Assembly: GCA_035577985.1 (NCBI GenBank)
Contig: DATJZY010000029.1
Coordinates: 23,954-87,953 of the forward strand
DNA length: 64,000 nucleotides
Direction of reading: 5' to 3'
Source of the DNA: Candidatus Eiseniibacteriota bacterium
GTDB taxonomy: Bacteria > Desulfobacterota > Binatia > DP-6
In this document: piece after piece, positions 3,893-55,785 of the stretch
Numbering within the stretch: position 1 is the stretch's first letter
Layout of the letters: the number at the start of each line of letters is the position of its first letter
Program-made: the position numbers and the translations under genes
Notes under the pieces: model-generated
What the model was told of the DNA's origin: nothing
What the model saw: only the letters and a program-made list of their open reading frames with translations
Database searches by the model: none

Positions 3893-4098
3893 GGGCGCGC
3901 GGGGCGAATCAGAGCTGCTGCCGTGAACAGCGGGCCTCGGCCTCGCGCTGCCCCTCGCGTAGCTCGGCCCAGAAGCGGGCGCGCGCCGCAACGCGACTCT
4001 CACCGTCGTGCTCCTTCTTAGCAACGACCGAACCGAACACCCGGCGTCGCAGCCGTCTCCAGTGGTGTCCCAGGACCTGGCGCAAGCCGTTTCGCATC

Positions 4099-8572: not shown

Positions 8573-8573
8573 C

Positions 8574-14800: not shown

Positions 14801-14947
14801 CCTCCCCGCCCCACGCCATCCCCGCTGGTCTGGCAGCGCCCGCGCACGGGCAGCTTCGAGCCCGAGGGCAGCGGCCAGGGCCCCATGACCGTGCCGCCCG
14901 AGGAGATGGTGCCAGGGCACGTGCTCGATCTCACCGCACCTGCATGA
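11864..14947 (+). CDS. Second large (1,027 aa) transglutaminase-like paralog. It is predicted catalytically inactive because the Cys nucleophile is replaced.
   Basis: Its ATG (11864) overlaps the previous stop as ATGA. It is collinear with 8574..11867 (MTRRIALTHTIEQRFARPVQLSTHWLRLRP...). The homologous nucleophile position reads GTPPELAWLL (Pro where the upstream paralog has Cys), while VHAWSEVYLPGAGWIGIDPSAG (His/Asp) is retained. Confidence 0.8.
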   Translation: MTRRIALTHTIEQRFARPVQLSTHWLRLRPAPHARARTTAYSMRVRTEPHFLNWLRDPFENHVARLDLPEPVTQLAIDVALVADLTETNPLDFLVDESATRHPFDYEPQLHKELEPYLRVEDMGAELTAWLAALERTPRYVVERVHDVATKMRERFAGTPPELAWLLTLAYRALGLAARFTSGYRIADDAASVHAWSEVYLPGAGWIGIDPSAGLFTTEAWVPLACAPEPLRAQPLVGFREASDETVRDAITLALLAPDEPSWPWGDDTWAYVRALGAKVDADLGAAGVSLAVGREVAFTSAIEAGSIEWSTGVLGDAKRRAGGALLRALGARLGPGALVQTGYGEWYVGEPSLRWRLTSLWRADGQPLWRDPSLLAQSPASQITVAAAEEAAHALARALGVAPACVMPAYEDSLHRLSRSGSGSGSGTVAPPPLEDLRDPERRRELADRLAEAGTPAGYALPLEHDDTEDRWRSGVWRFRRRRLHLLPGTLPMGFRLPLESLPAHDDASVPRTALCIEVRDGLLHVFLPPLPRVEHYLDLTRAIESAAHAIGVPVALEGYEPAEDPRLRRVVVEPDAGVLRVTLPSTASFEEHAALLDTAYDEAAELGLHAERALANGAREPVGAGAGVVLGGTTPDESPLHRRPEILRALVTCWQRHPSLSYFFATRFVGPGGRAPRPDEGRDDALFELALALERMPRGENALPWIPDRLLRHLLADPAGDLRRAEIRTDALFDPARATRRLGQLVLRSFETPPHARLAALQSLLVMALVARFAHDPRPQDLRRWGPALHDRFLLPSLLWDDLVAVLRDLDEAGYPLQPEWFAPLLAFHFPVVGGVCLGDVALELRLAHEPWPVLAEETTGAGVARFVDSANERLEVRATGLPPSRYALVCNGRRVPLRPTGVQGEWIAGVRYKAWNAPATLHPTTFAVGVLVFDLIDTWSGRAIGGCRFFPARPTLAGPAAQPPVVVERGDGERGRPPRPTPSPLVWQRPRTGSFEPEGSGQGPMTVPPEEMVPGHVLDLTAPA

Positions 14948-41117: not shown

Positions 41118-41645
41118 ATGGACGTCCTCGGCATGTCGGGCAGCCTCCGTGCCGCATCGACGAACGCGCGCCTGCTGCGCGCCGCCGCGAAGCTCGCGCC
41201 CGACGGAATGCAGTTCACGTTCTACGACGAGCAGATCGCCGCCCTGCCCCACTTCAGCCCGGACCTGGACGGCGAACGAGCCGCGGCTCCGCCTGCGGTG
41301 GCCGACCTCCGGCGACGCCTCTCGGCCGCCGACGCGGTGCTCATCTGCTGTCCGGAGTACGCGCACGGCGTTCCCGGTGCGTTCAAGAACGCGCTCGACT
41401 GGATCGTGTCGAGCGGCGAGCTCACCGACAGGCCGGTCGCGCTCGTCATGGCGTCGGCCAGCGGGGCGGAGCACGCACGTGCGGCGCTCGCGTCCACGCT
41501 CCGGGTCATGGGCGCGAACCTCGTCTTCGAGCGGTCGCTCGCCTTCTCGCCGAGGTACCTGGGGGCGGACGGCAGCATCCTCGACCCGGAGGCGGAGCGC
41601 GCCGTCCGCGAAGCCGTCGTCGCGCTCAGTCGTCCTTCGCCTTGA
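41118..41645 (+). CDS. NAD(P)H-dependent FMN reductase (flavodoxin-like fold).
   Basis: Family pattern: MSGSLRAASTNARLLRAA, YDEQIAALPHFSPDLD, DAVLICCPEYAHGVPGAFKNALDW. Confidence 0.75.
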   Translation: MDVLGMSGSLRAASTNARLLRAAAKLAPDGMQFTFYDEQIAALPHFSPDLDGERAAAPPAVADLRRRLSAADAVLICCPEYAHGVPGAFKNALDWIVSSGELTDRPVALVMASASGAEHARAALASTLRVMGANLVFERSLAFSPRYLGADGSILDPEAERAVREAVVALSRPSP

Positions 41646-44600
41646 ACTGTCCCGGGTCGTTGCGCTGGATGCCGATGCCGACGTGCTGGGTCTTCCAGCA
41701 CGGTCCGTTGGTCGACTGCAGCTGGACCACGACCGGCGCGGTGAGCGGCAGGGCGAACGGCGGGATGTTGTCTCCCTTGGCCTTCAGGTGGATCGTCGTC
41801 CCGCCGCGGACCAAGCTCGACTTGAGAAGGACCTTCGCGATGCCCTGCGGCGTGCGCGCCTGATCCGTGTATTTGTAGCCGATGGTCGAGATCGGCTTCC
41901 AGCACGGACCGGTGCCGCAGGTGCCGCCGGCGGGTGCCACGAGCGAGAGCGCGAGACGACCGCCGTCCTCGTCGAAGATGCAGAGCGTGTAGGAGTTGGT
42001 CATGGTCGGATCGCGGAACTCGGAGATGGTCGTGGCGTCACCCTTCATGAGCTTCCACGCCACCAGGTCACCGGCGTTCGGAACCCGGTCGGAGATCTGG
42101 ATCTTGCCCTTGAGCGGCAGCACCGGACCGCGACAGGTGGGACGCGGCCCCTTCTGGCAGCCGGCGCTGGGCTCGCAGATCTCGCACGCATCGCAGACGA
42201 CGGGCGTCCCGGTCGTGCAGATGCCGCTGGCGCAGGTCTCGCCGCTGGTGCACGCATTGCCGTCATCGCACGGGGTGCCATCGGGCTCCGGCGGCCCGAC
42301 GCACTGCCCGAGGCTCTCGTTGCACTGGCCGATGCGGCACTCGCCTCCGACCGCGCTACAGTCGCGCGGGCTGCCGGTGCAGCTCCCACCGCCGCACGTG
42401 TCGTTCACCGTGCAGAACAGGCCGTCGTTGCAGGGGAGCGTGTTGTTCGTGTGCGTGCAGCCGCCCGTCGGCGTACACGAGTCGGTGGTGCACGGGTTCC
42501 CGTCGTTGCAGTTCGGCGGCGGGCCACCCTGACAGGTTCCGCCATTGCAGGCATCCCCGGTCGTGCACGAGTTGCCGTCGTTGCACGGCGCGTTGTTGAA
42601 GACGTGCACGCAACCCGACACCGGGTTGCAGCTGTCGTCGGTACAGGGGTTGCCGTCGTTGCACGAGACCGGATCGCTGAGGCAGGCGTGGCCGACGCAC
42701 CGCTCGTTGGTGCTGCATTGGTCGCTGTCCGCACATTGCGAGTCGACGTTGCAGCAGCCGGCGATCGGCGAGTGTGCGCAGCCGGAGACGGGGTTGCAGC
42801 TGTCGGCCGTGCAGGGATTCGTGTCGTCGCAGTTGGCTGACGCGCCGGCGGTACAGGTCCCGCCGCCGCAGATATCGCCGACCGTGCAGGCGTTGCCGTC
42901 GGAGCAGGAGGCCGTGTTGTTGGTGTGCTGGCATCCCGTGGCGGGAACGCAGGTATCCGTCGTGCAGACGTTGAGGTCGTTGCAGTCGGGCGGGGACCCG
43001 CCGACGCACGAGCCCCCGGCGCAGGTGTCGTTCGTCGTGCACGCATTCCCGTCGTTGCACGGGCTCGTGTTGTTCGTGTTCACGCAGCCCGAGCCGGGGT
43101 TGCACGTGTCGTCGGTGCAGCCGTTCGAATCGTTGCAGTTGAGCGGGGGGCCGGGCACGCAGACGCCGCCGTTGCATGCGTCACTCGCCGTGCAGGCGTT
43201 GCCGTCGGTGCACGGGGCGGTGTTGTTGGAGTGCGTGCAGCCCGACACCGGGTTGCAGCCGTCGTCGGTGCACGGGTTGCCGTCGTCGCAGTTGAGGGAG
43301 CCACCGGGGACGCAGACACCGCCCGCGCACGTGTCGCCCACCGTGCAGAGGCTGCCGTCGCTGCAGGAGGAGGTATTGTTGGTGTGCGTACATCCCGACG
43401 CGGGATTGCAGCCGTCGGTGGTGCAGACGTTGCCGTCGTCGCAGTTGGGCGGCGCGCCGGGCACGCAGCTGCCGCCGCTGCACGTGTCACCCACCGTACA
43501 GGCGCTGCCATCGCTGCACGGCGCCGTGTTGTTCGTGTGCGTGCACCCCGACGCGGGATTGCAGCCGTCGTCGGTACACACGTCGCCGTCGTCGCAGTTG
43601 GGTGGGGTGCTGCCGACGCACGTTCCGCCCGCGCAGACGTCGACGGTCGTGCAGGCGTCGCCGTCGTCGCACGGTGCCGTGTTGTTCGGATGCGTGCACG
43701 CCCCCGCGCCGTTGCACTGGTCGTTGGTGCAGGCGTTGCCGTCGTTCGTGCACGGCGTGCCGGCGGTGACGGCGCAGTTGTTGAGGGTCTCGTTGCAGAC
43801 GTTGTTGCACTCCGGGCCGCCGAGGCAGGGATTCCCGGCGTGGGTCGCGCATCGCAGCTGGCTGCCGTTGCACGTGTCGGCTCCCGTGCAGAACGCGCCG
43901 TCGTCGCACGTCGCGGTCGCATCGAAGAGCGCGTTGCTCGCGGTCCACACCGGCCCGTTGGTGAGCGTCCCGGAGGTGGCCGGGCTGCCGACGGAGTCGG
44001 CGATCGTGGTGCCCGTGTTCTCGCCGAGACCCCAGCGTGCCACCAGGCCCGTCCCCGACGTCAGCTGCGACGACATCGTCGACTGGATCTGGGTCTGGGT
44101 GCGCGCCAGGTTCCAGATGCGCACCTCGTCGAGCAGGCCGGCGAACGCGCCGGTCGCAGGCGTGCCGGTCGTCGTCAGCATGCCGGCGAGGGCGGCAGGC
44201 TGCAGGCTGTCGAAGCGCGGAGTCGCACCCGGAACGAGCGATCCCTCGAGGTTGCCGTCGAGGTACAGGCGCATGGTCGTGCCGTCGAACGTGACGGCCG
44301 CGTGGTGCCAGTTGTTGTTCACGATCGCCGTCGTGCCGGACAGGGGATGGTTGCCGCCGGTCGCCGTGTCCTCGAAGTCGGCGGCGATCACATTGCCCGT
44401 CGTGTTGATCCCGAGGATGTAGTTCGCGTCGCAGCGACCGTCACCCGTCGGGCAGCCGGCGCCGTCGGCCTGGGGGGCACCCTTGGAGACCAGCGGCACG
44501 AAGGTCGAGATGCCGCCGCTTCCGGTGCTGCCGACGGTGCCCGTCCCTTCGCGCTTGAACCAGGTCTCGACGGTGAACATCGAGAGCCCGAGCTCGGCGG

Positions 44601-45468
44601 CGTTGCCGAAGGTTACGTAGTCGTTCGTCCCGTCGAAGCGCAGCATCGTGTTGGTGGCATTGGCGCACGGCGCGATGTCGAACGGCGCGCCGGTGGTCCA
44701 GGCGAAGTTCGTCCCGGTGATGGTACCGTTCTGGGCGGGTCCGGCGGAGTCGCCCACCGTCGTGCCGGACCCCTCCCCGAGTCCCCAGCGTGCCACCAGA
44801 TTCGGATCCGACGGGTTCTGGACGTTCATCGTGGCGCGGATCTGCGTCGCGGTCCTGGCCGTTCCCCAGATGCGGGCTTCATCGATGCGCCCGTCGAAGA
44901 ACCCGTTCGGCGTCCCGGTCGACGTGAGCATCGTCGCGAGACCGGCGTGTTGAATGCTGTCGGAGCGGGCAGGAGCACCGACCGCGAGCTCGGCTTCGAG
45001 CTCGCCGTTCAGGTAGAGACGCCAGGTGGTGCCGTCGTACGTCGCGGCCGCGTGATACCAGACGTTGCTCTGGATCGATGTGACGCCGACGACGGGATGG
45101 TTGTTGCCGAGCGGGCCGGGCCCGCCGGCCCCTTCCTCGAAGTCGGCGGCGAGCACGTTGCCGGTCGTGCTGATGCCGAGCACGTAGTTCGCATCGAGGT
45201 TGGAGCCGTCGGCCTCCGAAGCGCCCTTGGTTACGAGCGGAACCAGGGTGACCCCGTTGCTGCCCGTCGATGCGGAAATTCCCGTGCCCTGCCGATTGAA
45301 CCACGTCTCCAGCGTGAAGGTGGCGAGCCCGAGCGCCGACGGATTGCCGAAGGTCACGTAGGCATTGTTCGGCGAACCGGACGACGGGGCGAAGTCGAGA
45401 CCGGAATCCTGGGCCGACGCGATGCTCGCGAGGACGACGATCGAAGTTGCGACGACGCGCACGAACAT
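41626..45468 (-). CDS. Giant secreted multi-domain protein, paralog A (1,280 aa). Architecture: signal peptide, two LamG/ConA-like domains, ~13 Myxococcales-type Cys-rich repeats, then a conserved ~165-aa C-terminal module.
   Basis: Signal peptide MFVRVVATSIVVLASIASAQ. Two LamG-like units (..TFTLETWFNRQGTG..WYHAAATYDGTTWRLYLNGEL.. and ..FTVETWFKREGTG..WHHAAVTFDGTTMRLYLDGNL..). Tandem ~42-aa repeats of the form CxDGNxCTxDxCNPxSGCTHxNNTxPCxDGxACTxGDTCxGGxCVxGxPPN. The C-terminal module ends ...RNDPGQFKAKDD. Confidence 0.8.
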   Translation of the reverse strand: MFVRVVATSIVVLASIASAQDSGLDFAPSSGSPNNAYVTFGNPSALGLATFTLETWFNRQGTGISASTGSNGVTLVPLVTKGASEADGSNLDANYVLGISTTGNVLAADFEEGAGGPGPLGNNHPVVGVTSIQSNVWYHAAATYDGTTWRLYLNGELEAELAVGAPARSDSIQHAGLATMLTSTGTPNGFFDGRIDEARIWGTARTATQIRATMNVQNPSDPNLVARWGLGEGSGTTVGDSAGPAQNGTITGTNFAWTTGAPFDIAPCANATNTMLRFDGTNDYVTFGNAAELGLSMFTVETWFKREGTGTVGSTGSGGISTFVPLVSKGAPQADGAGCPTGDGRCDANYILGINTTGNVIAADFEDTATGGNHPLSGTTAIVNNNWHHAAVTFDGTTMRLYLDGNLEGSLVPGATPRFDSLQPAALAGMLTTTGTPATGAFAGLLDEVRIWNLARTQTQIQSTMSSQLTSGTGLVARWGLGENTGTTIADSVGSPATSGTLTNGPVWTASNALFDATATCDDGAFCTGADTCNGSQLRCATHAGNPCLGGPECNNVCNETLNNCAVTAGTPCTNDGNACTNDQCNGAGACTHPNNTAPCDDGDACTTVDVCAGGTCVGSTPPNCDDGDVCTDDGCNPASGCTHTNNTAPCSDGSACTVGDTCSGGSCVPGAPPNCDDGNVCTTDGCNPASGCTHTNNTSSCSDGSLCTVGDTCAGGVCVPGGSLNCDDGNPCTDDGCNPVSGCTHSNNTAPCTDGNACTASDACNGGVCVPGPPLNCNDSNGCTDDTCNPGSGCVNTNNTSPCNDGNACTTNDTCAGGSCVGGSPPDCNDLNVCTTDTCVPATGCQHTNNTASCSDGNACTVGDICGGGTCTAGASANCDDTNPCTADSCNPVSGCAHSPIAGCCNVDSQCADSDQCSTNERCVGHACLSDPVSCNDGNPCTDDSCNPVSGCVHVFNNAPCNDGNSCTTGDACNGGTCQGGPPPNCNDGNPCTTDSCTPTGGCTHTNNTLPCNDGLFCTVNDTCGGGSCTGSPRDCSAVGGECRIGQCNESLGQCVGPPEPDGTPCDDGNACTSGETCASGICTTGTPVVCDACEICEPSAGCQKGPRPTCRGPVLPLKGKIQISDRVPNAGDLVAWKLMKGDATTISEFRDPTMTNSYTLCIFDEDGGRLALSLVAPAGGTCGTGPCWKPISTIGYKYTDQARTPQGIAKVLLKSSLVRGGTTIHLKAKGDNIPPFALPLTAPVVVQLQSTNGPCWKTQHVGIGIQRNDPGQFKAKDD
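42131..43915. repeat. Coding tandem-repeat array inside paralog A. The units are ~126 bp and encode the Cys-rich repeat (~13 copies).
   Basis: Periodic recurrence of TGCAACGACGGCAACG/TGCACGCAC...AACAACAC codon strings. The boundaries are approximate. Confidence 0.6.
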
Positions 45469-45980
45469 CTGCTAATCCCTTCGCGCCACGGTGCGGTCTC
45501 AATAGACAGAGATAAGGGTATCCCTGTCAAGACGGAAGAGAATGAAGTAGCGCCGTGTCTCGCGTTTTCTTCGGTCCGTGTCGCTTGCGTCCTGCGCTGT
45601 AGCGCCTGCGCTAGGCGGGGGCCGCCGGGGCGCAGGCCGCGAGAGGCTGAGCATCATCTCGTCGCCGGTCGCGCCATCGTCACGTGCGTCGCCCTGGTGT
45701 GCGGCCGTCGCGTCTCGGCCAACATCTCTTTGTGCAGCAAGGAGCTACGACCGGCGCCCGCCAGGGAGCGCGTGGGCGAAAATCCGTTGACGCTCCGGTG
45801 AGCCGTCCCGGTGGCGCGACGCTCACGCCGCTCCGGTCGCGTCGAGTCGGACTTCTTCGTGTCGCGAAATCGTGCGTTTGGCGGACTCCAACCCCGTGTT
45901 TTCACTTGACGTAGTGGACCGTAGGCAGGTTAGAACGGTGACTCGCACTCGCTGCAACGATGTTACGTCCCGGAGGCAGA
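45469..45980. promoter_or_regulatory. 512-bp divergent intergenic region between paralog A (-) and paralog B (+), presumed to hold promoters for both.
   Basis: No credible ORF. The GC content is visibly lower next to the paralog A start (ctaatcccttcgc...aatagacagagataagggtatccctgtcaagacggaagagaatgaagtag). A GGAGG ribosome-binding site lies 4 nt before the paralog B ATG, and a TTGACG hexamer at ~45906. Confidence 0.4.
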
Positions 45981-48900
45981 ATGATGACAAGTCACGTTAT
46001 CTCGTCCCTCCGAAAGCTCTCTGCGACCACCGCCCTGCTGATCGCGATCGCCGCCTACCCCGGCGTCGCCGGCGCCCAGATGGCGCTGCGCCTCGGGCCG
46101 ACCAACACGACGACGTACGTCACGTTCGGTGCGACCTCGGCGCTGGGGCTCGCCACGTTCACGGTCGAGACGTGGTTCAATCGACAGGGGACGGGTGTCG
46201 CGACGTCGACGGGAAGCGGCGGACTCGCCTCCTTCGTTCCGCTCGTGACCAAGGGGGCCGCGCAGGGCGACGCGAGCAACGTCGACGCCGACTACGTGCT
46301 CGGCATCAACACCGCCGGCAACGTCATCGCGGCGGACTTCGAAGAGGGCGGCGCCGGGACCTCGCCGGGGTTGAACCACCCGCTCTCGGGCGTCACGCCC
46401 GTCGTCAACAATACCTGGTACCACGCGGCGGTCACCTACGACGGCACCACGCTGCGCCTCTACTTGAACGGCGAGGTCGAAGCCGAGCTGGTGGTCGGCC
46501 AGCCGACGCGGTCCGACAGCATCCAGCATGCGGCGCTCGGCACCACGCTCACGTCGACCGGAACGCCGAGCGGTTTCTTCGACGGCACGCTCGACGAGGC
46601 CCGGATCTGGAACGTCGCGCGCACGCAGGCGCAGATCCGCGCGACCATCAATACCCAGAATCCGTCGGATGGCACGCTGGTCGCGCGGTGGGGCCTCGAC
46701 GAGACGTCCGGAACGACCGTCAACGATTCGGCCGGAACCCCGCAGAACGGCACCATCACCGGCACGAGCTTCAGCCGGGTTGCGAATGCGCCGTTCGACA
46801 TCCTCACCTGCGCCGGCAACGCGAGCTCGATGATCCGCCTGGACGGCGTCAACGACTACGTCGCCCTCGGCAACCCCGCCGAGCTCGGCCTCACGAGCTT
46901 CACGATCGAAACCTGGTTCAAACGGGAAGGTGTCGGCGTCGGCAACACCACGGGGGCTGGAGGCATCGGTGGAACCGGAGGCCCGCCCGGCTCCCTGGTC
47001 CCGCTCATCACCAAGGGGGCACCCGAGGCCGACGGCTCGAACCTCGACGCCAACTACATCTTCGGCATCAACACGACGGGCAACGTGCTCGCCGCCGACT
47101 TCGAGGAAGGGCCCGGGGGGCCCGGCCCGCTCGGCGCGAACCATCCGATCGTCGGCGTGACCGCCATCACCGACAACAACTGGCATCATGCCGCCGCGAC
47201 CTACAGCACCGCGACGCGCGACTGGCGTCTCTATCTCGACGGCGCGCTCGAAGTCTCCGCGATCCAGGGGGCGGGTGTGGTCCCCCGCTCGGACAGCCTC
47301 CAGCCGGCCGCGCTCGGCACCATGCTCACCTCGACGAGCACGCGACTCGGCGCGTTCGCGGGCGTGCTCGACGAAGTCCGGATCTGGAACGTCGCCCGGA
47401 CCCAGGCGCAGATCCAGGCCGACATGTCGAACCAGCTCACCTCCGGAACGGGGCTCGTGGCGCGCTGGGGGCTCGGCGAGGGGACCGGAACGACGGCCGC
47501 GGACTCCGTCGCGCCGGCATCGAACGGCACGCTGACGAACGGGCCGGTCTGGACCGCCAGCAGCTCGCTCTTCGACGCCACCGCCGCGTGCAGCGACGGC
47601 GCATTCTGCAACGGCGCCGACACCTGCAGCGGCATCGGAGCCAACGGACTCCGCTGCACGACGCACGCCGGCGATCCCTGCACCGCAGGCGCGGAGTGCA
47701 ACAACGTCTGCAACGAGACCCTCGACAACTGCGCCGTCACCGCCGGCACGCCGTGCACGAACGACGGCAACGCCTGCACCGACGACCAGTGCAACGGCGC
47801 GGGGGCCTGCACGCATCCGAACAACACGGCGCCCTGCAACGACGGCAGCGCCTGCACGACCGTCGACGTCTGCGCGGGCGGAACGTGCGTCGGCAGCATT
47901 CCGCCCAACTGCGACGACGGCAACGTCTGCACCACCGACGGCTGCAACCCCGCGTCCGGGTGCACGCATGCCAACAACACGGTCTCGTGCAGCGACGGCA
48001 GCGCCTGTACGGTGGGTGACACGTGCAGCGGCGGCACCTGCGTTGCCGGCCCGCCGCCGAACTGCGACGACGGCAACGTCTGCACCACCGACGGCTGCAA
48101 CCCCGCGTCGGGGTGCACGCACACCAACAACACGGCACCGTGCAGCGACGGCAGCGTCTGCACGGTGGGCGACACGTGCGCGGGTGGCGTCTGCGTCCCC
48201 GGTGGCTCCCTCAACTGCAACGACGGCAACCCCTGCACCGACGACTCCTGCAACCCCGTGACCGGCTGCGTCGCCACCAACAACACCGCCTCCTGCTCGG
48301 ACGGCAACGCCTGCACCACCGGCGACGTCTGTAGCGGCGGCTCCTGCGTGGGCGGGCCTCCCCTCGTGTGCAACGACGGCAACCCCTGCACCGACGATTC
48401 CTGCAACCCCGCCACCGGCTGCGTCGCCACCAACAACGCCGCGTCCTGCTCGGACGGCAACGTCTGCACCACCGGCGACGTCTGTAGCGGCGGCTCCTGC
48501 GTCGGCGGGCCTCCGCTCGTCTGCAACGACGGCAACCCCTGCACCGACGATCAGTGCAATCCCACGACCGGCTGCTTCGCCCTCAACAACGCCGCCCCGT
48601 GCGACGACGGCAATGCCTGCACGACCGCCGACACGTGTGCAGGCGGCTCGTGCATGCCCGGCGCTCCGCTCTCCTGCAACGACGGGAACGTCTGCACGGA
48701 CGACGGCTGCAACCCCGCGTCGGGGTGCACGCATGCCAACAACTCCGCTCCATGCAGCGACGGCAGCGCCTGCACGACGGGCGACCTTTGCGCGGGCGGT
48801 GCGTGCGTCGGTGGGCCGCCGGCCAACTGCGACGACGGGAACGTCTGCACCGACGACGCCTGCAACCCCGCATCGGGGTGCACGCATGCCAACAACTCGG

Positions 48901-50480
48901 CTCCGTGCAACGACGGCAGCCAGTGCACGACGGCCGATACCTGCGCCGGCGGCGCCTGCGTCGGCGGGCCTCCACCCGACTGCAACGACGGCAACGTCTG
49001 CACCGACGATGCCTGCAATCCCGCATCGGGGTGCACGCACACGAACAACACCGCGTCGTGTGACGACGCCAATGGCTGCACGTCGAACGATGCGTGCGCC
49101 GGCGGCACCTGCCAGGGTGGCCCGCCGACCGTCTGCGACGATGGCAACGCCTGCACGGCCGACTCCTGTTCGAGCCCGAGCGGCTGCCAGCACACGGCGA
49201 TCGCCGGCTGCTGCAACACGAACGCGCAGTGCGCAGATACCGACCTGTGCACGACGAACGAACGATGCGTGGCGCACGCCTGCGTCAGCGACCCCGTGAG
49301 CTGCAACGACGGCAACCCGTGCACCGACGACGGCTGCAACCCGCCGAGCGGATGCCTGCACGTCCCCAACAACCTTCCGTGCAGCGACGGCGACGCGTGC
49401 ACGACGGCCGATGCCTGCAGCGGAGGAGCCTGCATCGGAGGTCCGCCGCCCAATTGCAACGACGGCAACCCGTGTACCGACGATGCCTGCAACCCCGCTG
49501 GCGGCTGTACGCACACCAACAATACGGCGCCCTGCAGCGACGGGTCGTTCTGCACGACGGGCGACACCTGCAGCGCAGGGAGCTGCGTCGGCGGCCCGCC
49601 ATCCAACTGCAACGACGGCAATCCGTGCACCGATGACGCGTGCAATCCGTCGTCCGGCTGCACGCACACGAACAACGCCCTGCCCTGCAGCGACGGCGCG
49701 TTCTGCACCGTCGGCGACGTCTGCGCGGGCGGCGCGTGCACCGGCACGCCCCGCGACTGCAATTCGGCCGGCGATCAGTGCCACACCGGCACGTGCGACG
49801 AGGGGCTCGACCAGTGCGTCGGACCGGCCAAGCCGAACGGGAGCCCGTGCAACGACGGAGACGTGTGCACGACCGGGGAAACGTGCACGAGCGGATCCTG
49901 TGGCGGCGGCACGCCAACGGTCTGCGCCGCCTGCGAGACGTGCGACGCCACCGGCGGCTGCCAAGTCGGGCCACGGACCGACTGTCGGGCGTCGATCCAG
50001 GCATCCTCGAGCAAGCTCGCCATCTACGACAAGACGCCCGACACGGCTCTGGTGTCGTGGAAGTGGTCCAAGGGAGACGCGACGTCGGTCGAGGATCTCG
50101 GAGACCCCCTCGTGACCACGGACTACACGCTGTGCATCTTCGACCAGAACGGGCTGGCGGTCCGGGCGACGGCGCCCGCCGGCGACGACTGCGGGGCGAA
50201 GCCGTGCTGGAAGGCGCTCGGCCTCATCGGCTTCAAGTATTCGGACAAGGACCGGACGCCCGAGGGCGTTCTCAAGCTGCTCCTCAAGTCGGGGGACTCC
50301 GGCCGGGCGAAGGCCCGCATCAAGGCGAAGGGCTCCAACATTCCGATCATGGCGCTCCCGCTGGCACCACCCGTGACGGCGCAGCTCCAGGCCGCCGGCA
50401 ACGCCTGCCTGGAGAGCACGCACAGCGCGAGCAGCATCCTCCGCAACGAGGACACCGTGTTCAAGGCGAAGAGCGACTGA
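45981..50480 (+). CDS. Giant secreted multi-domain protein, paralog B (~1,500 aa). Same architecture as paralog A with ~18 Cys-rich repeats.
   Basis: Start chosen at the ATG 45981, preceded by GGAGG (the track's 45960 ATG lies upstream of the ribosome-binding site). Signal peptide MMTSHVISSLRKLSATTALLIAIAAYPGVAGA. Two LamG-like units, a repeat array, and the conserved C-terminal module ending ...RNEDTVFKAKSD. Confidence 0.8.
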   Translation: MMTSHVISSLRKLSATTALLIAIAAYPGVAGAQMALRLGPTNTTTYVTFGATSALGLATFTVETWFNRQGTGVATSTGSGGLASFVPLVTKGAAQGDASNVDADYVLGINTAGNVIAADFEEGGAGTSPGLNHPLSGVTPVVNNTWYHAAVTYDGTTLRLYLNGEVEAELVVGQPTRSDSIQHAALGTTLTSTGTPSGFFDGTLDEARIWNVARTQAQIRATINTQNPSDGTLVARWGLDETSGTTVNDSAGTPQNGTITGTSFSRVANAPFDILTCAGNASSMIRLDGVNDYVALGNPAELGLTSFTIETWFKREGVGVGNTTGAGGIGGTGGPPGSLVPLITKGAPEADGSNLDANYIFGINTTGNVLAADFEEGPGGPGPLGANHPIVGVTAITDNNWHHAAATYSTATRDWRLYLDGALEVSAIQGAGVVPRSDSLQPAALGTMLTSTSTRLGAFAGVLDEVRIWNVARTQAQIQADMSNQLTSGTGLVARWGLGEGTGTTAADSVAPASNGTLTNGPVWTASSSLFDATAACSDGAFCNGADTCSGIGANGLRCTTHAGDPCTAGAECNNVCNETLDNCAVTAGTPCTNDGNACTDDQCNGAGACTHPNNTAPCNDGSACTTVDVCAGGTCVGSIPPNCDDGNVCTTDGCNPASGCTHANNTVSCSDGSACTVGDTCSGGTCVAGPPPNCDDGNVCTTDGCNPASGCTHTNNTAPCSDGSVCTVGDTCAGGVCVPGGSLNCNDGNPCTDDSCNPVTGCVATNNTASCSDGNACTTGDVCSGGSCVGGPPLVCNDGNPCTDDSCNPATGCVATNNAASCSDGNVCTTGDVCSGGSCVGGPPLVCNDGNPCTDDQCNPTTGCFALNNAAPCDDGNACTTADTCAGGSCMPGAPLSCNDGNVCTDDGCNPASGCTHANNSAPCSDGSACTTGDLCAGGACVGGPPANCDDGNVCTDDACNPASGCTHANNSAPCNDGSQCTTADTCAGGACVGGPPPDCNDGNVCTDDACNPASGCTHTNNTASCDDANGCTSNDACAGGTCQGGPPTVCDDGNACTADSCSSPSGCQHTAIAGCCNTNAQCADTDLCTTNERCVAHACVSDPVSCNDGNPCTDDGCNPPSGCLHVPNNLPCSDGDACTTADACSGGACIGGPPPNCNDGNPCTDDACNPAGGCTHTNNTAPCSDGSFCTTGDTCSAGSCVGGPPSNCNDGNPCTDDACNPSSGCTHTNNALPCSDGAFCTVGDVCAGGACTGTPRDCNSAGDQCHTGTCDEGLDQCVGPAKPNGSPCNDGDVCTTGETCTSGSCGGGTPTVCAACETCDATGGCQVGPRTDCRASIQASSSKLAIYDKTPDTALVSWKWSKGDATSVEDLGDPLVTTDYTLCIFDQNGLAVRATAPAGDDCGAKPCWKALGLIGFKYSDKDRTPEGVLKLLLKSGDSGRAKARIKAKGSNIPIMALPLAPPVTAQLQAAGNACLESTHSASSILRNEDTVFKAKSD
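47589..49987. repeat. Coding tandem-repeat array inside paralog B (~18 units of ~126 bp).
   Basis: Same periodic Cys-rich repeat coding pattern as in paralog A. The boundaries are approximate. Confidence 0.6.
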
Positions 50481-50493
50481 CCGGAGAGAACTC

Positions 50494-53400
50494 GTGCCGC
50501 ATCGCCCTGCCCGAATCCTCCCCGCCCTGTTGGGACTCGTCGCATCGACGTTGGCGGTGGCCGCTCGCCCGGCGGCGGCGGCCTGCAGCAACCCCGGCGG
50601 CGCCTGCGCGATCGACTTCGGCGGGACGAATTCCTACGTCACGTTCGGCAACACGCCGGCGCTGGGGCTCCCGCAGTTCACCCTCGAGCTGTGGTTCAAC
50701 CGCCAGGGGACCGGCACGACCGCGACCACCGGAACCGGCGGCGTGACGGCGGTCCCACTCATCACCAAGGGGCGGGGCGAAGCCGACGGCAGCAACGTCG
50801 ACATGAACTACTTCCTCGGCATCCGCACCACCGACAACCTGTTGGTGGCCGACTTCGAGGAAGGCGCGGCGGGGGCGCAACCGGGACTGAACCATCCGAT
50901 CGCCGGCACGACGCCCATCGCAACGGGCGTCTGGTACCACGCCGCCGTGACCTACGACGGCGCCACGTGGCACCTGTACCTGAACGGCATTGTCCAGACG
51001 ACGCTGGCCGTGAACCAGCCGCCGCAAGCCGACAGCATCCAGCACGCCGCGCTCGCGACGGCGCTCACGTCGACGGGAGCGGCGGCCGGCTTCTTCGACG
51101 GTGTCATCGACGAGGCGCGCATCTGGAGCTACGCGCGCAGCGCGGCCGAGATCCAGGGAGCATTGAACCAGGAGGTCTACTCGGCACCCGGTCTGGTCGC
51201 TCGATGGGGCCTCAACGAGGGAACCGGCGGGACGGGAACCATCGTCGCCGACAGCGCGGCACCGCCGCAGAACGGCACGGTGATCGGTGCGAACTTCCAG
51301 TGGACCGACGGAGGTCCCGTAAGCGCGAACCTGCCGCCTGCCACGCCCGGCCTCAATGCGCCCGCCGACGGTGCGACGAACGTATCGACCGCCCCGGTCC
51401 TCGACGTCGCGGTGTCCGATCCGGAGCTGAGCCCTCTCGACGTCACCTTCTGGGGCCGAGAGGTCATCGCACCGGGTCCCGACTTCACGGTCGTCATCCT
51501 GCCCGACACGCAGTACTACTCGTGCGGAGTGCCCTGCAGCAGCAGCCCGGCGGTGTTCCAGTCGCAGACGCAGTGGATCGTCGACAACCGGCTCGCGCGC
51601 AACATCGCGTACGTCGGGCATCTCGGGGACTGCGTCGAGCACGGCAACCTCGGCAACGGCGTCGACCCGAACCCCGACTACGAATGGAACAACGCCTCCG
51701 CCGCGATGAGCCTCATCGAGGATCCGGTCGCGACGCAGCTCGCCGACGGCATGCCGTTCGGCATCCTTCCCGGCAACCACGACCAGACGCCCAACGGCGA
51801 TCCCGTGGGTACGCCGCCGGAGAACTCGACCGCCAAGTTCAACCAGTTCTTCGGCGTCTCGCGCTACAGCGGCAGGGCCTACTACGGCGGCCACTTCGGC
51901 ACGAACAACGACAACAACTACACCTTGTTCAGCGCGAGCGGGCTCGACTTCGTCGTCGTCGACCTCGAGTACGCTCCGACGCCCGATCCGGCCGTGCTGG
52001 CCTGGGCCGACGGCGTCCTGCAGGCCCACCCGACGCGACGCGCGATCGTCCTCACCCACCACATGCTCGGCACGGGCAACCCCGGGGCGTTCAGCGCACA
52101 AGGACAGGCGATCTACGACACCCTGAAGCACAACCCGAACCTCTTCCTGCTGCTCGGCGGCCACGTGCCCGGGGAGGGGCGGCGCCAGGACGTGTTCGAC
52201 GGCCGGGTCGTGAATTCGCTGCTCTCGGACTACCAGGGTCGCACGAACGGCGGGAACGGCTGGCTCCGCGTCATGACCTTCTCCCCGGCGAACGGCACGA
52301 TCCAGGTGCAGACGTACTCGCCCTGGCTGAACCAGTTCGAGACGGACGCCGACAGCCAGTTCACCCTCACCTACGACATGGCGACCACGGGGTTCGCCCC
52401 GATCGCAACCGTGCCCGGCGTCGCGTCGGGCACCAACGCGCAGGCGACCTGGGCGAGCCTGTTCCCCGGCATGAGCTACGAGTGGTACGTCACGGTGAGC
52501 GACGGCGCGAACACGTCGACGGGGCCGGTCTGGAGGTTCGCGACGGGGCTCTGCGGACCCGACGGAGCGTCCTGCAACGACGGCCTCTTCTGCAACGGAG
52601 CCGACTCCTGCAGCGGCGGCATGTGCAGTGTCCACGCGGGCGATCCGTGTGGCGGCGGCCCCGAGTGCGCCGAAACGTGCGACGAAGTGCGCGACGACTG
52701 CTTCGAGGCCGCCGGAACGCCGTGCACGGACGACGGTAACGCGTGCACGAACGACGTCTGCAGCGGAGCCGGAGCCTGCGTGCATCCGGAAACCACGGCC
52801 GCGTGCTCCGACGGAAACGCCTGCACCACGGGGGACGTCTGCAGCGGGGGCGCCTGCATCGGTGGGCCGCCGGCGAACTGCGACGACGCCAACCCGTGTA
52901 CCGACGACACCTGCGACCCCGCGACGGGTTGCCTCAACACCCCCAACACCGCCGCGTGCTCCGACGGCAGCGCCTGCACGGTGGGTGACACCTGCGCCGG
53001 CGGGAGCTGCGTCGGCGGTCCGCCGCTCGACTGCAACGACACCAACCCGTGCACCGACGATGGCTGCAACCCGGCTACGGGCTGCACCAACATTCCGAAC
53101 AACGCCGCGTGCGACGACGGGAATGCGTGCACCACCGTCGACGTCTGCAGCGCCGGCGCGTGTCAGGGAAGCATCCCGCCGAACTGCAACGACGGCAACC
53201 TCTGCACCGACGACACCTGCAACCCCGCGTCGGGGTGCGCGCACACCTTCAACACGACCTCCTGCGACGACGGCGACGCGTGCACCATCGACGACGCGTG
53301 CGGCGCGGGGACGTGTCATGGAGGGACGGCGGCCAACTGCGACGACGCCAACGCGTGTACGGCCGACAGCTGCGTCCCGGCGTCGGGCTGCGTCCACGCA

Positions 53401-54708
53401 CCGCTGCCCAACTGCTGCATGACCAACGCCCAGTGCGCCGATAGCGACCAGTGCACCACCAACGAGCGGTGCGTCGGCAACACCTGCGTGACCGATCCGG
53501 TCGGCTGCAACGACGCAAACCCCTGCACCAGCGACGGCTGCAATCCCGCGTCGGGCTGCACGCACACGCCCAACAACCTCCCCTGCAACGACGGCAACGC
53601 CTGCACGACGGCGGACGCCTGCAGCGGCGGCGCGTGCGTCGGCGGCCCTCCGCCCAACTGCAACGACCTCAACGTCTGCACGAACGATGCGTGCAGCCCG
53701 ACGTCGGGCTGCACGCACACGCCCAACACGGCGCCTTGCACGGATGGGATCTTCTGCAACGGCCTCGATACCTGCGCCGGAGGCACGTGCAGCGTCCACG
53801 GCGGCAATCCGTGTCCGGGTCCCGACGGCGACGGCGACTGCGCCGAATCGTGCAACGAGGCGACCGACCGCTGCACGGCGCCCGACCCCAACGGGTCGCC
53901 GTGCAACGACGGGCTCTACTGCACCGTCGGCGAGGTGTGCAACGCCGGCGTCTGCACCGGAACGCCGCGCGACTGCAGCTCCAGTGGCGATCAATGCCGC
54001 ACGGGCACGTGCAACGAGACCGCCGACGCGTGTGACGGGCCGCCCAAGCCCGACGGCACGCCCTGCGACGACGGCAACGCATGCTCGAACGGCGAGAGCT
54101 GCGTGGCCGGTGTGTGCTCCGGCGGTGCGCAGACCATCTGCCCCGCCTGCGAGACCTGCATCGCCCCGGGCGGCTGCCAGACGGGTGCTCGTCCCGATTG
54201 CCGGACCCCCATCGCTCCCCTCAGGGGAAAGCTGGTCGTCTTCGACCGGATGCCCGACGCGGGCGACGGCATCGCATGGAAGTGGAGCAAGGGCGCGGCG
54301 ACCGCCTTCGGGGATCTCGGCGATCCAGTGACGTCGACCGACTACACGCTGTGCATCTTCGACCACGGCGGCAGCCACCTCGCCGTGAAAGCCACCGCTC
54401 CCGCCGGCCGCATGTGCGGATCGGTCCCGTGCTGGAGGCGACTCGGAAGCTTCGGCTTCAAGTACACCGACAAGGGGCGGCTGCCCGAGGGTGTGCTGAA
54501 GGTCTTGATCCGCAGCGGGGGTAGCGGCTCCGCGAAGGCGCAGCTGAAGGCCAAGGGTGACGCCATCCCGCCCTTCGCGCTCCCGCTCGTCACTCCGGTC
54601 GTGGCGCAGCTCCAGGCGACCGGCGCCGCATGCTGGCAGACGGACCACGTGGGTCCGCCGGCGCTGCAGCGCAACGACGGCATGCAGTTCAAGGCCAAGG
54701 ACGAGTAG
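50494..54708 (+). CDS. Giant secreted multi-domain protein, paralog C (1,404 aa). Architecture: signal peptide, LamG-like domain, calcineurin-like metallophosphoesterase domain, ~12 Cys-rich repeats, conserved C-terminal module.
   Basis: GTG start 13 nt after the paralog B stop, with a GGAGAG ribosome-binding site. Signal peptide MPHRPARILPALLGLVASTLAVAARPAAAA. LamG unit (FTLELWFNRQGTG...WYHAAVTYDGATWHLYLNG). Metallophosphoesterase motifs (VVILPDTQYY, VGHLGDCVEHGN, ILPGNHDQ, LTHHMLG, GGHVPGEG). Repeat array, and a C-terminal module ending ...RNDGMQFKAKDE. Confidence 0.8.
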   Translation: MPHRPARILPALLGLVASTLAVAARPAAAACSNPGGACAIDFGGTNSYVTFGNTPALGLPQFTLELWFNRQGTGTTATTGTGGVTAVPLITKGRGEADGSNVDMNYFLGIRTTDNLLVADFEEGAAGAQPGLNHPIAGTTPIATGVWYHAAVTYDGATWHLYLNGIVQTTLAVNQPPQADSIQHAALATALTSTGAAAGFFDGVIDEARIWSYARSAAEIQGALNQEVYSAPGLVARWGLNEGTGGTGTIVADSAAPPQNGTVIGANFQWTDGGPVSANLPPATPGLNAPADGATNVSTAPVLDVAVSDPELSPLDVTFWGREVIAPGPDFTVVILPDTQYYSCGVPCSSSPAVFQSQTQWIVDNRLARNIAYVGHLGDCVEHGNLGNGVDPNPDYEWNNASAAMSLIEDPVATQLADGMPFGILPGNHDQTPNGDPVGTPPENSTAKFNQFFGVSRYSGRAYYGGHFGTNNDNNYTLFSASGLDFVVVDLEYAPTPDPAVLAWADGVLQAHPTRRAIVLTHHMLGTGNPGAFSAQGQAIYDTLKHNPNLFLLLGGHVPGEGRRQDVFDGRVVNSLLSDYQGRTNGGNGWLRVMTFSPANGTIQVQTYSPWLNQFETDADSQFTLTYDMATTGFAPIATVPGVASGTNAQATWASLFPGMSYEWYVTVSDGANTSTGPVWRFATGLCGPDGASCNDGLFCNGADSCSGGMCSVHAGDPCGGGPECAETCDEVRDDCFEAAGTPCTDDGNACTNDVCSGAGACVHPETTAACSDGNACTTGDVCSGGACIGGPPANCDDANPCTDDTCDPATGCLNTPNTAACSDGSACTVGDTCAGGSCVGGPPLDCNDTNPCTDDGCNPATGCTNIPNNAACDDGNACTTVDVCSAGACQGSIPPNCNDGNLCTDDTCNPASGCAHTFNTTSCDDGDACTIDDACGAGTCHGGTAANCDDANACTADSCVPASGCVHAPLPNCCMTNAQCADSDQCTTNERCVGNTCVTDPVGCNDANPCTSDGCNPASGCTHTPNNLPCNDGNACTTADACSGGACVGGPPPNCNDLNVCTNDACSPTSGCTHTPNTAPCTDGIFCNGLDTCAGGTCSVHGGNPCPGPDGDGDCAESCNEATDRCTAPDPNGSPCNDGLYCTVGEVCNAGVCTGTPRDCSSSGDQCRTGTCNETADACDGPPKPDGTPCDDGNACSNGESCVAGVCSGGAQTICPACETCIAPGGCQTGARPDCRTPIAPLRGKLVVFDRMPDAGDGIAWKWSKGAATAFGDLGDPVTSTDYTLCIFDHGGSHLAVKATAPAGRMCGSVPCWRRLGSFGFKYTDKGRLPEGVLKVLIRSGGSGSAKAQLKAKGDAIPPFALPLVTPVVAQLQATGAACWQTDHVGPPALQRNDGMQFKAKDE
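52573..54203. repeat. Coding tandem-repeat array inside paralog C (~12 units of ~126 bp).
   Basis: Same periodic Cys-rich repeat coding pattern. The boundaries are approximate. Confidence 0.6.
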
Positions 54709-54733
54709 GTCGCCCTCGCGAGGGATCGTCTCC

Positions 54734-54739
54734 GCTAGA
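54734..54739. repeat. Left copy of the 6-bp target-site duplication GCTAGA.
   Basis: GCTAGA immediately precedes the left inverted repeat. The identical hexamer follows the right inverted repeat at 55780-55785. Confidence 0.7.
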
Positions 54740-55779: not shown

Positions 55780-55785
55780 GCTAGA
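55780..55785. repeat. Right copy of the 6-bp target-site duplication GCTAGA. It contains the TAG stop codon of the P450 gene (CTA on the + strand, 55781-55783).
   Basis: See the left copy at 54734-54739. Confidence 0.7.

What the first reader, a model, noticed from the sequence alone, without database searches (positions are those of the whole stretch)
41626..54708. Three giant paralogous secreted LamG / Cys-rich-repeat proteins, arranged divergently and in tandem over 13 kb
Proteins of 1,280, ~1,500 and 1,404 aa share a signal peptide, LamG/ConA-like jelly-roll domains, long arrays of ~42-aa Cys-rich repeats (CxDGNxCTxDxCNPxSGCxHxNNTxPCxDGxxCTxGDxCxGGxCxGGPPPN, the Myxococcales-type disulfide-rich repeat) and a common C-terminal module. 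Paralog A is divergent from B. B and C are separated by only 13 nt and are likely co-transcribed. Together they use about 20% of the window. This looks like a lineage-specific family of extracellular proteins, perhaps adhesins, matrix or S-layer-like components, or carbohydrate- or metal-binding proteins. The domain combination (lectin-like LamG, disulfide repeats, and in one paralog a phosphoesterase) is unusual and I know of no assigned function.
Basis: partly seen in the sequence, partly recalled or inferred. Interest (0 to 1): 0.7.

Follow-up and report, generated by a model that had tools for sequence, protein, structure and literature searches.

The report
Secreted lectin-stalk proteins, unnamed tail domain
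Three intact neighbouring genes of an uncultured bacterium encode very large secreted proteins built from a lectin-type head, a long disulfide-rich stalk and a 186-residue tail domain that has no name and no solved structure, although thousands of other secreted bacterial proteins carry it.

Summary
Three intact paralogous ORFs lie at the stated coordinates: A 41626-45468(-), B 45960-50480(+) and C 50494-54708(+). All are under purifying selection (dN/dS 0.17-0.21 against a syntenic metagenome contig). Pfam confirms Laminin_G_3 (two copies in A and B, one in C) and long Cys-rich arrays. C also carries a metallophosphoesterase that keeps every residue invariant in its subfamily.

Three corrections are needed. 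The repeat unit is 51 aa (153 nt), made of two alternating 4-Cys half-units, not 42 aa. It matches Dicty_CTDC (PF00526), not TIGR02232/DUF4215. The contig is labelled Candidatus Eisenbacteria, not Myxococcales.

Best reading: these are secreted head-stalk-base proteins whose tail is a shared anchoring or targeting domain. That role is inferred, and no partner genes were found.

The parts
41626..45468 (-). Paralogue A, 1280 aa: signal peptide, two LamG_3 domains, Cys-rich stalk, C-terminal (CT) module
   Evidence: Intact ORF. GC3 0.91. Pfam hits. Orthologue 92.6% identical, dN/dS 0.167. A cluster member 1280 aa long is NCBI HXJ33274.1 'LamG-like jellyroll fold domain-containing protein'.
45412..45468 (-). 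A signal peptide (res 1-19, MFVRVVATSIVVLASIASA|QD)
   Evidence: Read from the sequence. It is the only hydrophobic 19-aa window in the protein. The cleavage site is inferred, not predicted by a tool.
44683..45396 (-). A LamG_3 domain 1 (about res 25-262)
   Evidence: Pfam Laminin_G_3, 2 stretches, E 1e-39. Boundaries taken from paralogue alignments.
43924..44646 (-). A LamG_3 domain 2 (about res 275-515)
   Evidence: Pfam best stretch 279-462.
42196..43908 (-). A Cys-rich stalk (res 521-1091): 17 recognisable 4-Cys half-repeats (8 type 1, 9 type 2)
   Evidence: Dicty_CTDC 99.9 bits. 153-nt period. Regex parse.
41629..42195 (-). A C-terminal module (res 1092-1280), an unnamed ~186-aa all-beta domain
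   Evidence: Profile search finds 6,947 clusters. AF2 pLDDT 97.2. No Pfam, NCBIfam or PDB hit. No fold neighbour. dN/dS 0.082.
45469..45980 (.). Divergent A-B control region
   Evidence: 88% identical to the orthologous region, with both ends nearly invariant. Each end holds a TTGAC(A/G) box. GGAGG precedes B's conserved ATG. No Rfam hit. No consensus sigma-70 site. A promoter role is inferred.
45960..50480 (+). Paralogue B, 1506 aa as the longest ORF (probable start 45981/45984): signal peptide, two LamG_3 domains, longest stalk, CT module
   Evidence: The orthologue is 1395 aa and lacks exactly two 51-aa units.
45981..46076 (+). B signal peptide (MMTSHVISSLRKLSATTALLIAIAAYPGVAGA|Q)
   Evidence: Read from the sequence, plus hydropathy. 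Start taken from conservation.
46092..47603 (+). B LamG_3 domains 1 and 2 (about res 45-280 and 292-548)
   Evidence: Pfam Laminin_G_3, 2 stretches, E 1.1e-35. Alignments.
47604..49922 (+). B Cys-rich stalk: 25 recognisable half-repeats (12 type 1, 13 type 2)
   Evidence: Dicty_CTDC 146 bits, 12 stretches..
49923..50477 (+). B C-terminal module (res 1322-1506)
   Evidence: HMM E 2e-74.
50494..54708 (+). Paralogue C, 1404 aa (GTG start, GGAGAG 5 nt upstream): signal peptide, one LamG_3, metallophosphoesterase, stalk, CT module
   Evidence: Orthologue 91.2% identical, dN/dS 0.208. The same sequence is on record in ENA. NCBI HXJ33276.1 is 21 aa shorter.
50494..50583 (+). C signal peptide (res 1-30, ...LAVAARPAAAA|CSNPG)
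   Evidence: Read from the sequence, plus hydropathy. Whether signal peptidase I or II cleaves it is not decided.
50611..51318 (+). C LamG_3 domain (about res 40-275)
   Evidence: Pfam E 9.3e-20, stretch 44-221.
51478..52383 (+). C metallophosphoesterase domain (res 329-630)
   Evidence: Pfam Metallophos 23.9 bits against cut-off 21.5. 888 homologues, the best 50-63% identical, several named metallophosphoesterase or phosphohydrolase. All family-invariant residues are kept: PDTQ, GD, GNH, H194, GH229, E233, R236.
52543..54138 (+). C Cys-rich stalk: 15 recognisable half-repeats
   Evidence: Dicty_CTDC 102 bits..
54139..54705 (+). C C-terminal module (res 1216-1404)
   Evidence: HMM E 2e-71.

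Best explanation
A, B and C are Sec-exported, disulfide-stabilised 'head-stalk-base' proteins that act outside the cytoplasm of a diderm bacterium.

Head. The N-terminal part does the work. In A and B it is two LamG/ConA-type jelly-roll domains, which are ligand-binding (probably glycan-binding) modules. In C it is one LamG domain plus a metallophosphoesterase that appears catalytically intact.

Stalk. This is a stiff rod of alternating 4-Cys half-repeats (Dicty_CTDC type, 8 Cys per 51 aa). Its length changes by whole 51-aa units.

Base. This is an unnamed ~186-aa all-beta domain with six conserved cysteines. It is locked to the extreme C-terminus and shared by thousands of secreted proteins with unrelated heads. 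I infer that the base is the common handle that holds these proteins at the cell envelope or matrix, or directs them to it. The stalk would then hold the heads away from the surface. Divergent promoters would drive A on one side and a B-C operon on the other.

Shown: the genes are intact and under selection; the domain identities; the repeat anatomy; the size, terminal position and variety of head domains of the tail family; and its lack of sequence or structural relatives.

Inferred: export, disulfide bonding, glycan binding, phosphoesterase activity, B-C co-transcription and, above all, the anchoring or targeting role of the tail.
For: Genes. The ORFs are intact, GC3 is 0.90 and dN/dS is 0.17-0.21. 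The same three-gene order occurs in a related contig.

Export and disulfides. Each protein has only an N-terminal hydrophobic segment, carries 97-132 Cys in regular spacing, and is strongly acidic.

Heads. LamG_3 and Dicty_CTDC score well above their cut-offs. The phosphoesterase keeps all subfamily-invariant residues.

Stalk. B here and its orthologue differ by exactly two 51-aa units.

Tail family. It has 6,947 clusters, 5,435 of them at E<=1e-10. Among the best 150 hits plus two found, 130 of 154 domain copies end within 5 aa of the protein end, and only 2 of 152 proteins carry two copies. The heads include Peptidase_S8, SASA, GH3, GDSL lipase, lactonase-type and other propellers, beta-helix, Metallophos and LamG. 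The tail is usually preceded by a Cys-rich segment (85 of 134) or an S/T/P linker (13 of 134), and 94 of 133 family proteins have a signal-like N-terminus.

Parallel with a known sorting tag. Close relatives of C's phosphoesterase in other lineages end in the T9SS sorting domain PF18962 instead. The same head therefore carries a known sorting domain elsewhere.

Constraint. The tail is the most constrained part between orthologues (dN/dS 0.08), yet the most diverged part between the paralogues (47-55% aa).
Against: Nothing here tests localisation or binding.

No conserved partner gene was found near 85 family loci. No secretion component, sortase-like enzyme or receptor recurs; only promiscuous superfamilies do.

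The tail does not resemble the T9SS CTD or any known anchor in sequence or fold. It has no transmembrane helix and no terminal sorting motif.

A stand-alone form (signal peptide plus tail only) exists (P0094), so the tail has a function of its own and is not merely an export tag.

The Metallophos Pfam score is only just above its cut-off, and canonical motif I (DxH) reads DTQ.

No sigma-70 promoter or terminator consensus was found.
Confidence: 0.5

Rival explanations
1. The proteins are freely released exoenzymes and lectins. The tail is a substrate-binding module, analogous to a carbohydrate-binding module or a mineral- or polymer-binding domain. It would dock many different hydrolases and binders onto one common external substrate rather than onto the cell's own surface.
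For: Many partner heads are hydrolases: GH3, GDSL lipase, S8 peptidase, SASA esterase and metallophosphoesterase. The tail is an autonomous beta-sandwich-like fold, and a stand-alone secreted form exists. The weak fold matches include sugar-binding and Ig-like domains of GH2 enzymes and two carbohydrate-binding modules (CBMs). No anchoring machinery was found nearby.
Confidence: 0.25
2. The proteins are structural components of an extracellular matrix or S-layer-like coat. The tail would be a self-association (oligomerisation or polymerisation) domain, and the three paralogues would co-assemble.
For: Dicty_CTDC repeats are, from general knowledge, the hallmark of Dictyostelium extracellular matrix proteins. 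The three co-located paralogues have distinct, individually conserved tails. They are very large, acidic and disulfide-rich.
Against: The same tail sits on many ordinary enzymes that are unlikely to be coat subunits. There is no evidence of high expression or of assembly genes. Nothing tests oligomerisation.
Confidence: 0.12
3. They are polymorphic toxins or contact-dependent effectors, with the C-terminal module as the toxic domain.
For: The proteins are large, secreted and repeat-rich. An IS element lies next to C.
Against: In polymorphic toxins the C-terminal tip is the variable part and an immunity gene follows it. Here the C-terminus is the conserved part and the heads vary. No small downstream gene is conserved. 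In the relative, C is followed after 14 nt by a convergent P450 gene.
Confidence: 0.03

Closest known systems
T9SS cargo proteins with the C-terminal sorting domain (Por_Secre_tail, PF18962; Bacteroidota and relatives)
   Same: The logic is the same: a conserved beta-rich domain is fixed at the extreme C-terminus of many unrelated secreted heads (peptidases, glycosidases, propellers, lectin-like domains), each with an N-terminal Sec signal. Close relatives of C's phosphoesterase carry PF18962 in other lineages.
   Different: No sequence match was found to any Pfam model, even at E<=10. No T9SS CTD appears among the fold matches. From general knowledge, the tail is about twice the size of a T9SS CTD. 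It has six conserved cysteines. No T9SS genes were seen near any family member. This is a functional analogy only.
Dictyostelium Cys-rich repeat proteins (Pfam Dicty_CTDC, PF00526; extracellular matrix and prespore proteins)
   Same: The stalk repeats match this model far above the cut-off (100-146 bits against 27). The repeat is the same ~24-aa 4-Cys unit.
   Different: The host is bacterial. Two sub-types alternate to form a 51-aa super-repeat. The repeats are combined with LamG heads and the unnamed tail. The repeat has no assigned structure or function in either kingdom.
Myxococcus cysteine-rich repeat proteins (TIGR02232 / DUF4215, PF13948)
   Same: Both are disulfide-rich repeat stalks of secreted bacterial proteins. 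16 of 74 other proteins bearing the same tail do contain DUF4215.
   Different: A, B and C give no hit to DUF4215 or TIGR02232.
Bacterial LamG_3 (ConA-like jelly-roll) domain proteins, e.g. PDB 4dqa (uncharacterised protein)
   Same: The LamG_3 match is strong (E 1e-39). B residues 125-278 match 4dqa at E 4.9e-08.
   Different: The ligand is unknown. No characterised homologue is close enough to transfer a specificity.
Stand-alone ~320-aa 'PDTQ' metallophosphoesterases of uncultured bacteria (PF00149 members)
   Same: They are 50-63% identical to C residues 329-630, and all invariant residues are shared.
   Different: In C the enzyme is embedded between a LamG head and a stalk plus tail. The subfamily has no solved structure by sequence search and no known substrate.

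Membership tests
Pfam Laminin_G_3 (PF13385) | Whole-protein score above the gathering cut-off (27.6 bits) | tested here: met
   136.5, 123.4 and 71.7 bits. Two stretches in A and in B, one in C.
Pfam Dicty_CTDC (PF00526) | Score above the gathering cut-off (27 bits), with a tandem ~24-aa 4-Cys unit | tested here: met
   99.9, 146.3 and 101.9 bits with 8, 12 and 6 stretches. 17, 25 and 15 half-units by pattern. 153-nt DNA period.
TIGR02232 / DUF4215 Myxococcus cysteine-rich repeat | Match to the TIGR02232 (NCBIfam) or PF13948 model | tested here: not met
   No hit at E<=0.01 in NCBIfam or Pfam. I did not confirm separately that TIGR02232 is in the NCBIfam release searched.
Calcineurin-like metallophosphoesterase (PF00149), paralogue C | Score above the gathering cut-off (21.5 bits) | tested here: met
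   23.9 bits, E 6.4e-05, which is marginal. Support comes from 888 homologues, many with precomputed PF00149 hits.
Calcineurin-like metallophosphoesterase (PF00149), paralogue C | Metal-ligand and catalytic motifs (D-x-H, GD, GNH[DE], H, GH) | tested here: inconclusive
   GD, GNHD, H194 and GH229 are present and invariant across 20 subfamily members. Motif I reads PDTQ (Asp kept, His replaced by Gln) in the whole subfamily, and the second His of GHxH is absent. Activity is not testable here.
TafC family fimbrial protein (NF052521; haloarchaeal Tat-fimbriae, PMC11821415) | Score above the curated cut-off (410 bits) over the full model | tested here: not met
   About 50 bits. The match covers only the jelly-roll part of the model.
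T9SS C-terminal sorting domain (PF18962) | Sequence match to the model, or an Ig-like CTD fold | tested here: not met
Bacterial lipoprotein (paralogue C) | Lipobox before Cys+1 with an uncharged h-region (rule PS51257, recalled from memory) | tested here: inconclusive
   The sequence is AAAA-C31, but Arg lies 6 residues before the Cys, so the rule as recalled fails. The odd Cys count (97) can be explained by the unique Cys in GDC. No predictor was available.
Unnamed ~186-aa C-terminal module family (defined here) | Full-length match to the profile; conserved C13, C21, C72, C93, C98, C166, WKW, PAGG, PCW and CWE; position at the C-terminus | tested here: met
   HMM E 1e-71 to 2e-74 for A, B and C, ending at the last residue. 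Conserved columns from alignment A4. Family size.

The most novel reading that the evidence does not exclude
The ~186-aa tail is the cargo tag or surface anchor of an undescribed pathway for outer-membrane translocation or cell-surface attachment. The pathway would operate in diderm lineages of uncultured soil and sediment bacteria (Binatia, Myxococcota, Eisenbacteria-labelled MAGs) and would be a functional counterpart of the T9SS C-terminal domain. Its machinery would be encoded elsewhere in the genome. The three paralogues, each with its own constrained tail, would be cargo of that pathway.
Probability: 0.15. Interest if true: 0.8.

Novelty: new variant of a known kind. Interest (0 to 1): 0.45.

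Why it matters
The heads and the stalk are ordinary building blocks of secreted bacterial proteins. The tail is not. It is a large domain family (about 7,000 clusters at 50% identity) with no Pfam or NCBIfam model and no solved or recognisably similar structure. Its strict C-terminal position across enzymes and binding proteins looks like the signature of a sorting or anchoring device.

Defining this domain would improve annotation of thousands of 'hypothetical' or 'cysteine-rich repeat' proteins from uncultured soil and sediment bacteria. It would also give a concrete handle for asking how these lineages display exoenzymes on their surface.

If the tail is only a binding module, the result is a useful new domain of unknown function and little more.

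Tried and rejected
1. TIGR02232/DUF4215 label: no hit.
2. TafC (50 bits against 410) and blaCOR_B1 (17 bits against 450) hits in NCBIfam: far below cut-off, rejected.
3. First AF2 run of the tail, with a 4-sequence alignment: pLDDT 46, unusable. Re-run with 43 diverse sequences: pLDDT 97.
5. Profile of the tail against PDB sequences: nothing at E<=10.
6. Search for a partner gene. Three single contexts were followed by clustering of 569 ORFs from 85 loci. Only PAS/kinase/GGDEF, sigma-54 activator, SDR, P450, AMP-binding and polysaccharide-deacetylase superfamilies recur. I read this as background.
7. Idea that the segments flanking C's phosphoesterase form one split FN3 domain: no Pfam support for the joined or the separate pieces.
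8. Lipoprotein reading of C: inconclusive.
9. Rfam on the A-B intergenic region: nothing. Sigma-70 promoter and terminator scan: nothing above shuffles.
10. Genome-contig scan. Alignment A4 was too diverse to give a search pattern. A2 gave only 2 loci because its patterns were narrow, so copy number per genome was not measured.
11. Long antisense ORFs (45963-50591, 50461-55704, 42925-45801): rejected as high-GC artefacts.
12. Polymorphic-toxin reading: rejected because the C-terminus is the conserved part.
13. Literature searches for Dicty_CTDC in bacteria, DUF4215, 'Myxococcus cysteine-rich repeat', Binatia plus cysteine-rich, and Eisenbacteria: no paper on these proteins.
Full report
OBSERVATION. 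The window is about 70% G+C, so very long antisense ORFs also appear (for example 45963-50591 and 50461-55704). B and C are 13 nt apart. A and B are divergent across 491 nt. Together the genes take 19.7% of the window. A and B are 62% identical over 1181 residues, and the C-terminal halves of all three are 52-57% identical.

ARE THE GENES REAL AND INTACT? Yes. A near-identical protein (P0004) led to a 79-kb metagenome contig (JGI 3300019360, loci L003/L004). It has the same order: Lnt, FMN reductase, A, B, C, P450. Orthologue identities are 92.6% (A) and 91.2% (C). dN/dS is 0.167, 0.206 and 0.208 for A, B and C. B is 1395 aa there against 1506 here. The main difference is one in-frame gap of 102 residues, exactly two repeat units. 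The first ATG of B is not conserved (ATG becomes AGG). A GGAGG followed by ATG at 45981/45984 is conserved, so B is probably 1498-1499 aa.

SOURCE ORGANISM. Exact-sequence look-ups place the window on a contig whose NCBI proteins (HXJ33273-HXJ33279) belong to a TPA MAG labelled Candidatus Eisenbacteria bacterium. A and C fall in clusters with NCBI entries (HXJ33274.1, HXJ33276.1) annotated only as 'LamG-like jellyroll fold domain-containing protein'. I could not check that taxonomic label independently.

DOMAINS. Pfam gives Laminin_G_3 (two stretches in A and B, one in C; E 1e-39, 1e-35, 9e-20). It gives Dicty_CTDC at 100-146 bits against a cut-off of 27, and in C a marginal Metallophos hit (23.9 bits against 21.5). 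NCBIfam gives nothing meaningful: no TIGR02232 hit, and a TafC match of 50 bits against a cut-off of 410 that covers only the jelly-roll part. TafC is a haloarchaeal Tat-fimbria subunit (PMC11821415).

REPEAT ANATOMY. The DNA period is 153 nt. At protein level two 4-Cys half-units alternate every 25/26 residues. Type 1 is CxDxNxCTxDxCxPxxGC and type 2 is CxDGxxCTxxDxCxGGxC. Together they make a 51-aa unit with 8 Cys. A has 17 recognisable half-units, B 25 and C 15.

THE PHOSPHOESTERASE IN C. Residues 329-630 have 888 homologues at E<=1e-5. The best are 50-63% identical, and many are stand-alone ~320-aa proteins named metallophosphoesterase or phosphohydrolase in MAGs of Binatia, Patescibacteria and Thermodesulfobacteriota. 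In a 20-sequence alignment C keeps every invariant residue of this subfamily: PDTQ, GD, GNH, H194, GH229, E233 and R236. The subfamily departs from the textbook motifs: DxH reads DTQ, and there is no second His in GHxH. It also has no sequence relative in the PDB. I call the fold assignment sound and the activity probable but untested. Some relatives of this enzyme carry the T9SS sorting domain PF18962 at their C-terminus.

THE C-TERMINAL MODULE. This is the part worth attention. The last ~186 residues of A, B and C match no Pfam or NCBIfam model even at E<=10. A profile of the module finds no PDB sequence. A word-indexed search found only 2 relatives. An exhaustive profile search of 1.84 billion cluster representatives found 6,947 at E<=1e-3, 5,435 at 1e-10 and 1,055 at 1e-30. 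I examined 152 proteins: the best 150 from that search plus the two. In them the module ends within 5 residues of the protein end in 130 of 154 copies, and within 20 residues in 145. Only two proteins carry two copies.

The proteins carrying the module have very different heads. These include DUF4215, Disintegrin-like and Dicty_CTDC repeats, several beta-propeller types, Peptidase_S8, SASA esterase, Metallophos, a beta-helix, GH3 with Fn3-like, and GDSL lipase. The 80 residues before the module are Cys-rich in 85 of 134 cases and an S/T/P linker in 13. 94 of 133 family proteins have a signal-like N-terminus. At least one protein is just a signal peptide plus the module (P0094, 202 aa). Where sources give names, they are 'hypothetical protein' or 'cysteine-rich repeat protein'. 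The labelled organisms are Candidatus Binatia, a Polyangiaceae MAG and an 'uncultured delta proteobacterium'.

CONTEXT. The neighbours in the window are unrelated housekeeping or metabolic genes: Lnt, FMN reductase, P450, SOD, GMC oxidoreductase and a hybrid kinase. The window holds no further copy of the module. To look for a partner I fetched 80 metagenome loci and clustered 569 ORFs from 85 loci. Only promiscuous superfamilies recur: PAS/kinase/GGDEF in 9 loci, sigma-54 activators in 7, SDR in 6, P450 in 5, AMP-binding in 4 and polysaccharide deacetylase in 4. Three single contexts share nothing. No dedicated machinery is linked to the family. One other locus (L060) also has three module-bearing genes in a divergent-plus-tandem layout, with different heads.

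MECHANISM. I commit to a head-stalk-base reading. The proteins are exported by Sec. Each has only an N-terminal hydrophobic segment, 97-132 regularly spaced cysteines and a strong acidic bias. The cysteines would be oxidised outside the cytoplasm. The proteins would then act at or beyond the cell surface. LamG heads (with a phosphoesterase in C) would sit on a stiff stalk whose length varies by whole units, and the tail would be the shared handle.

The tail's strict terminal position, single copy and wide range of head domains are typical of sorting or anchoring devices. Examples are the T9SS CTD, LPXTG and PEP-CTERM (established knowledge). Carbohydrate-binding modules, by contrast, occur anywhere in a protein and often in tandem. 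The tail is the most constrained segment between orthologues (dN/dS 0.08 in A) and the most diverged between paralogues (47-55% identity). That pattern fits paralogue-specific but important contacts. This step is inference, and I put it at 0.5.

The main rival is that the tail is a substrate-binding module of freely released enzymes (0.25). A self-assembly or matrix role is next (0.12). A toxin reading is rejected because the conserved end is the wrong end.

COMPARISON AND NOVELTY. The heads and stalk are members of known Pfam families. The combination and the tail are not described in any paper I could find. The closest system in logic is T9SS cargo, but membership fails on sequence and fold. 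I rate the finding a new variant of a known kind: modular secreted proteins with an undescribed, very widespread C-terminal domain. Interest is moderate (0.45). The domain family is large and unnamed, but no function has been shown.

Noticed in passing
window 54739-55780 (flanking CTAG at 54735-54738 and 55781-55784): An IS481-family insertion sequence lies between C and the convergent P450 gene. Its transposase ORF is 54757-55758, with LZ_Tnp_IS481 and rve domains. It has ~24-nt terminal inverted repeats and a duplicated CTAG target. The related contig L003 has the empty site with a single CTAG, which also holds the P450 stop codon.
   Followed up: yes
window 43273-43776 (A) and 47730-48233 (B): A ~500-nt tract in the first stalk repeats is 89-94% identical between the inverted paralogues A and B, against ~70-75% elsewhere. 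This looks like gene conversion between inverted copies.
   Followed up: partly
window 47808-48113 (placement within the array is arbitrary): B carries two more 51-aa stalk units than its orthologue in L003 (1506 against 1395 aa). Stalk length therefore varies between close relatives.
   Followed up: yes
window 45960-45984: The first ATG of B is not conserved in the orthologue. The conserved Shine-Dalgarno GGAGG and ATG are at 45981/45984.
   Followed up: yes
window 50494-50556: The NCBI entry clustered with C (HXJ33276.1) is 1383 aa, 21 residues shorter. If the difference is all at the N-terminus, that start would remove the signal peptide. The 50494 GTG has GGAGAG 5 nt upstream and is the form on record in ENA.
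   Followed up: partly
window 51322-51477 and 52384-52542: The short beta-rich segments on either side of C's phosphoesterase (...VLDVAVSDPELSPLDVTFWG... and ...ATWASLFPGMSYEWYVTVSDG...) look like two halves of one Ig/FN3-type domain with the enzyme nested inside. A relative (P0208) has the same trailing segment. Pfam gave no support.
   Followed up: partly
paralogue C, Cys31 (window 50584-50586) and Cys in GDC (about window 51625-51627): C has an odd number of cysteines (97), while A and B have even numbers (102, 132). The Cys in 'GDCVEHG' is unique to C among 20 phosphoesterase relatives and may be the unpaired one. Alternatively Cys31, right after the signal peptide, could be lipid-modified.
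   Followed up: partly
L060 7124-16634: A second metagenome locus has three module-bearing genes in the same divergent-plus-tandem layout, but with other heads (GDSL lipase plus disintegrin-like repeats; disintegrin-like repeats; no Pfam hit).
   Followed up: partly
P0003 (1006 aa, metagenome): One family member carries two copies of the tail module, one internal (491-677) and one terminal (819-1006). This is a rare exception to the terminal-only rule.
   Followed up: no
window 2-4150(-), 11711-17964(-), 18448-23106(-): Several long ORFs with coding-like GC3 have no Pfam hit at all: 1383 aa running off the window edge, 1114 aa, 420 aa and others.
   Followed up: no
window 6066-11867: A circularly permuted ATP-grasp gene (6066-7610) lies upstream of a transglutaminase-like/DUF2126 gene (8574-11867). 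A WS/DGAT wax-ester synthase gene is at 23107-24534.
   Followed up: no
L002, L003, L039, L043, L072: A cytochrome P450 gene lies within the fetched flanks (up to 10 kb) of a module-bearing gene in 5 of 85 loci, including the window's own locus. This is probably chance, since P450 is a large superfamily in these genomes.
   Followed up: partly
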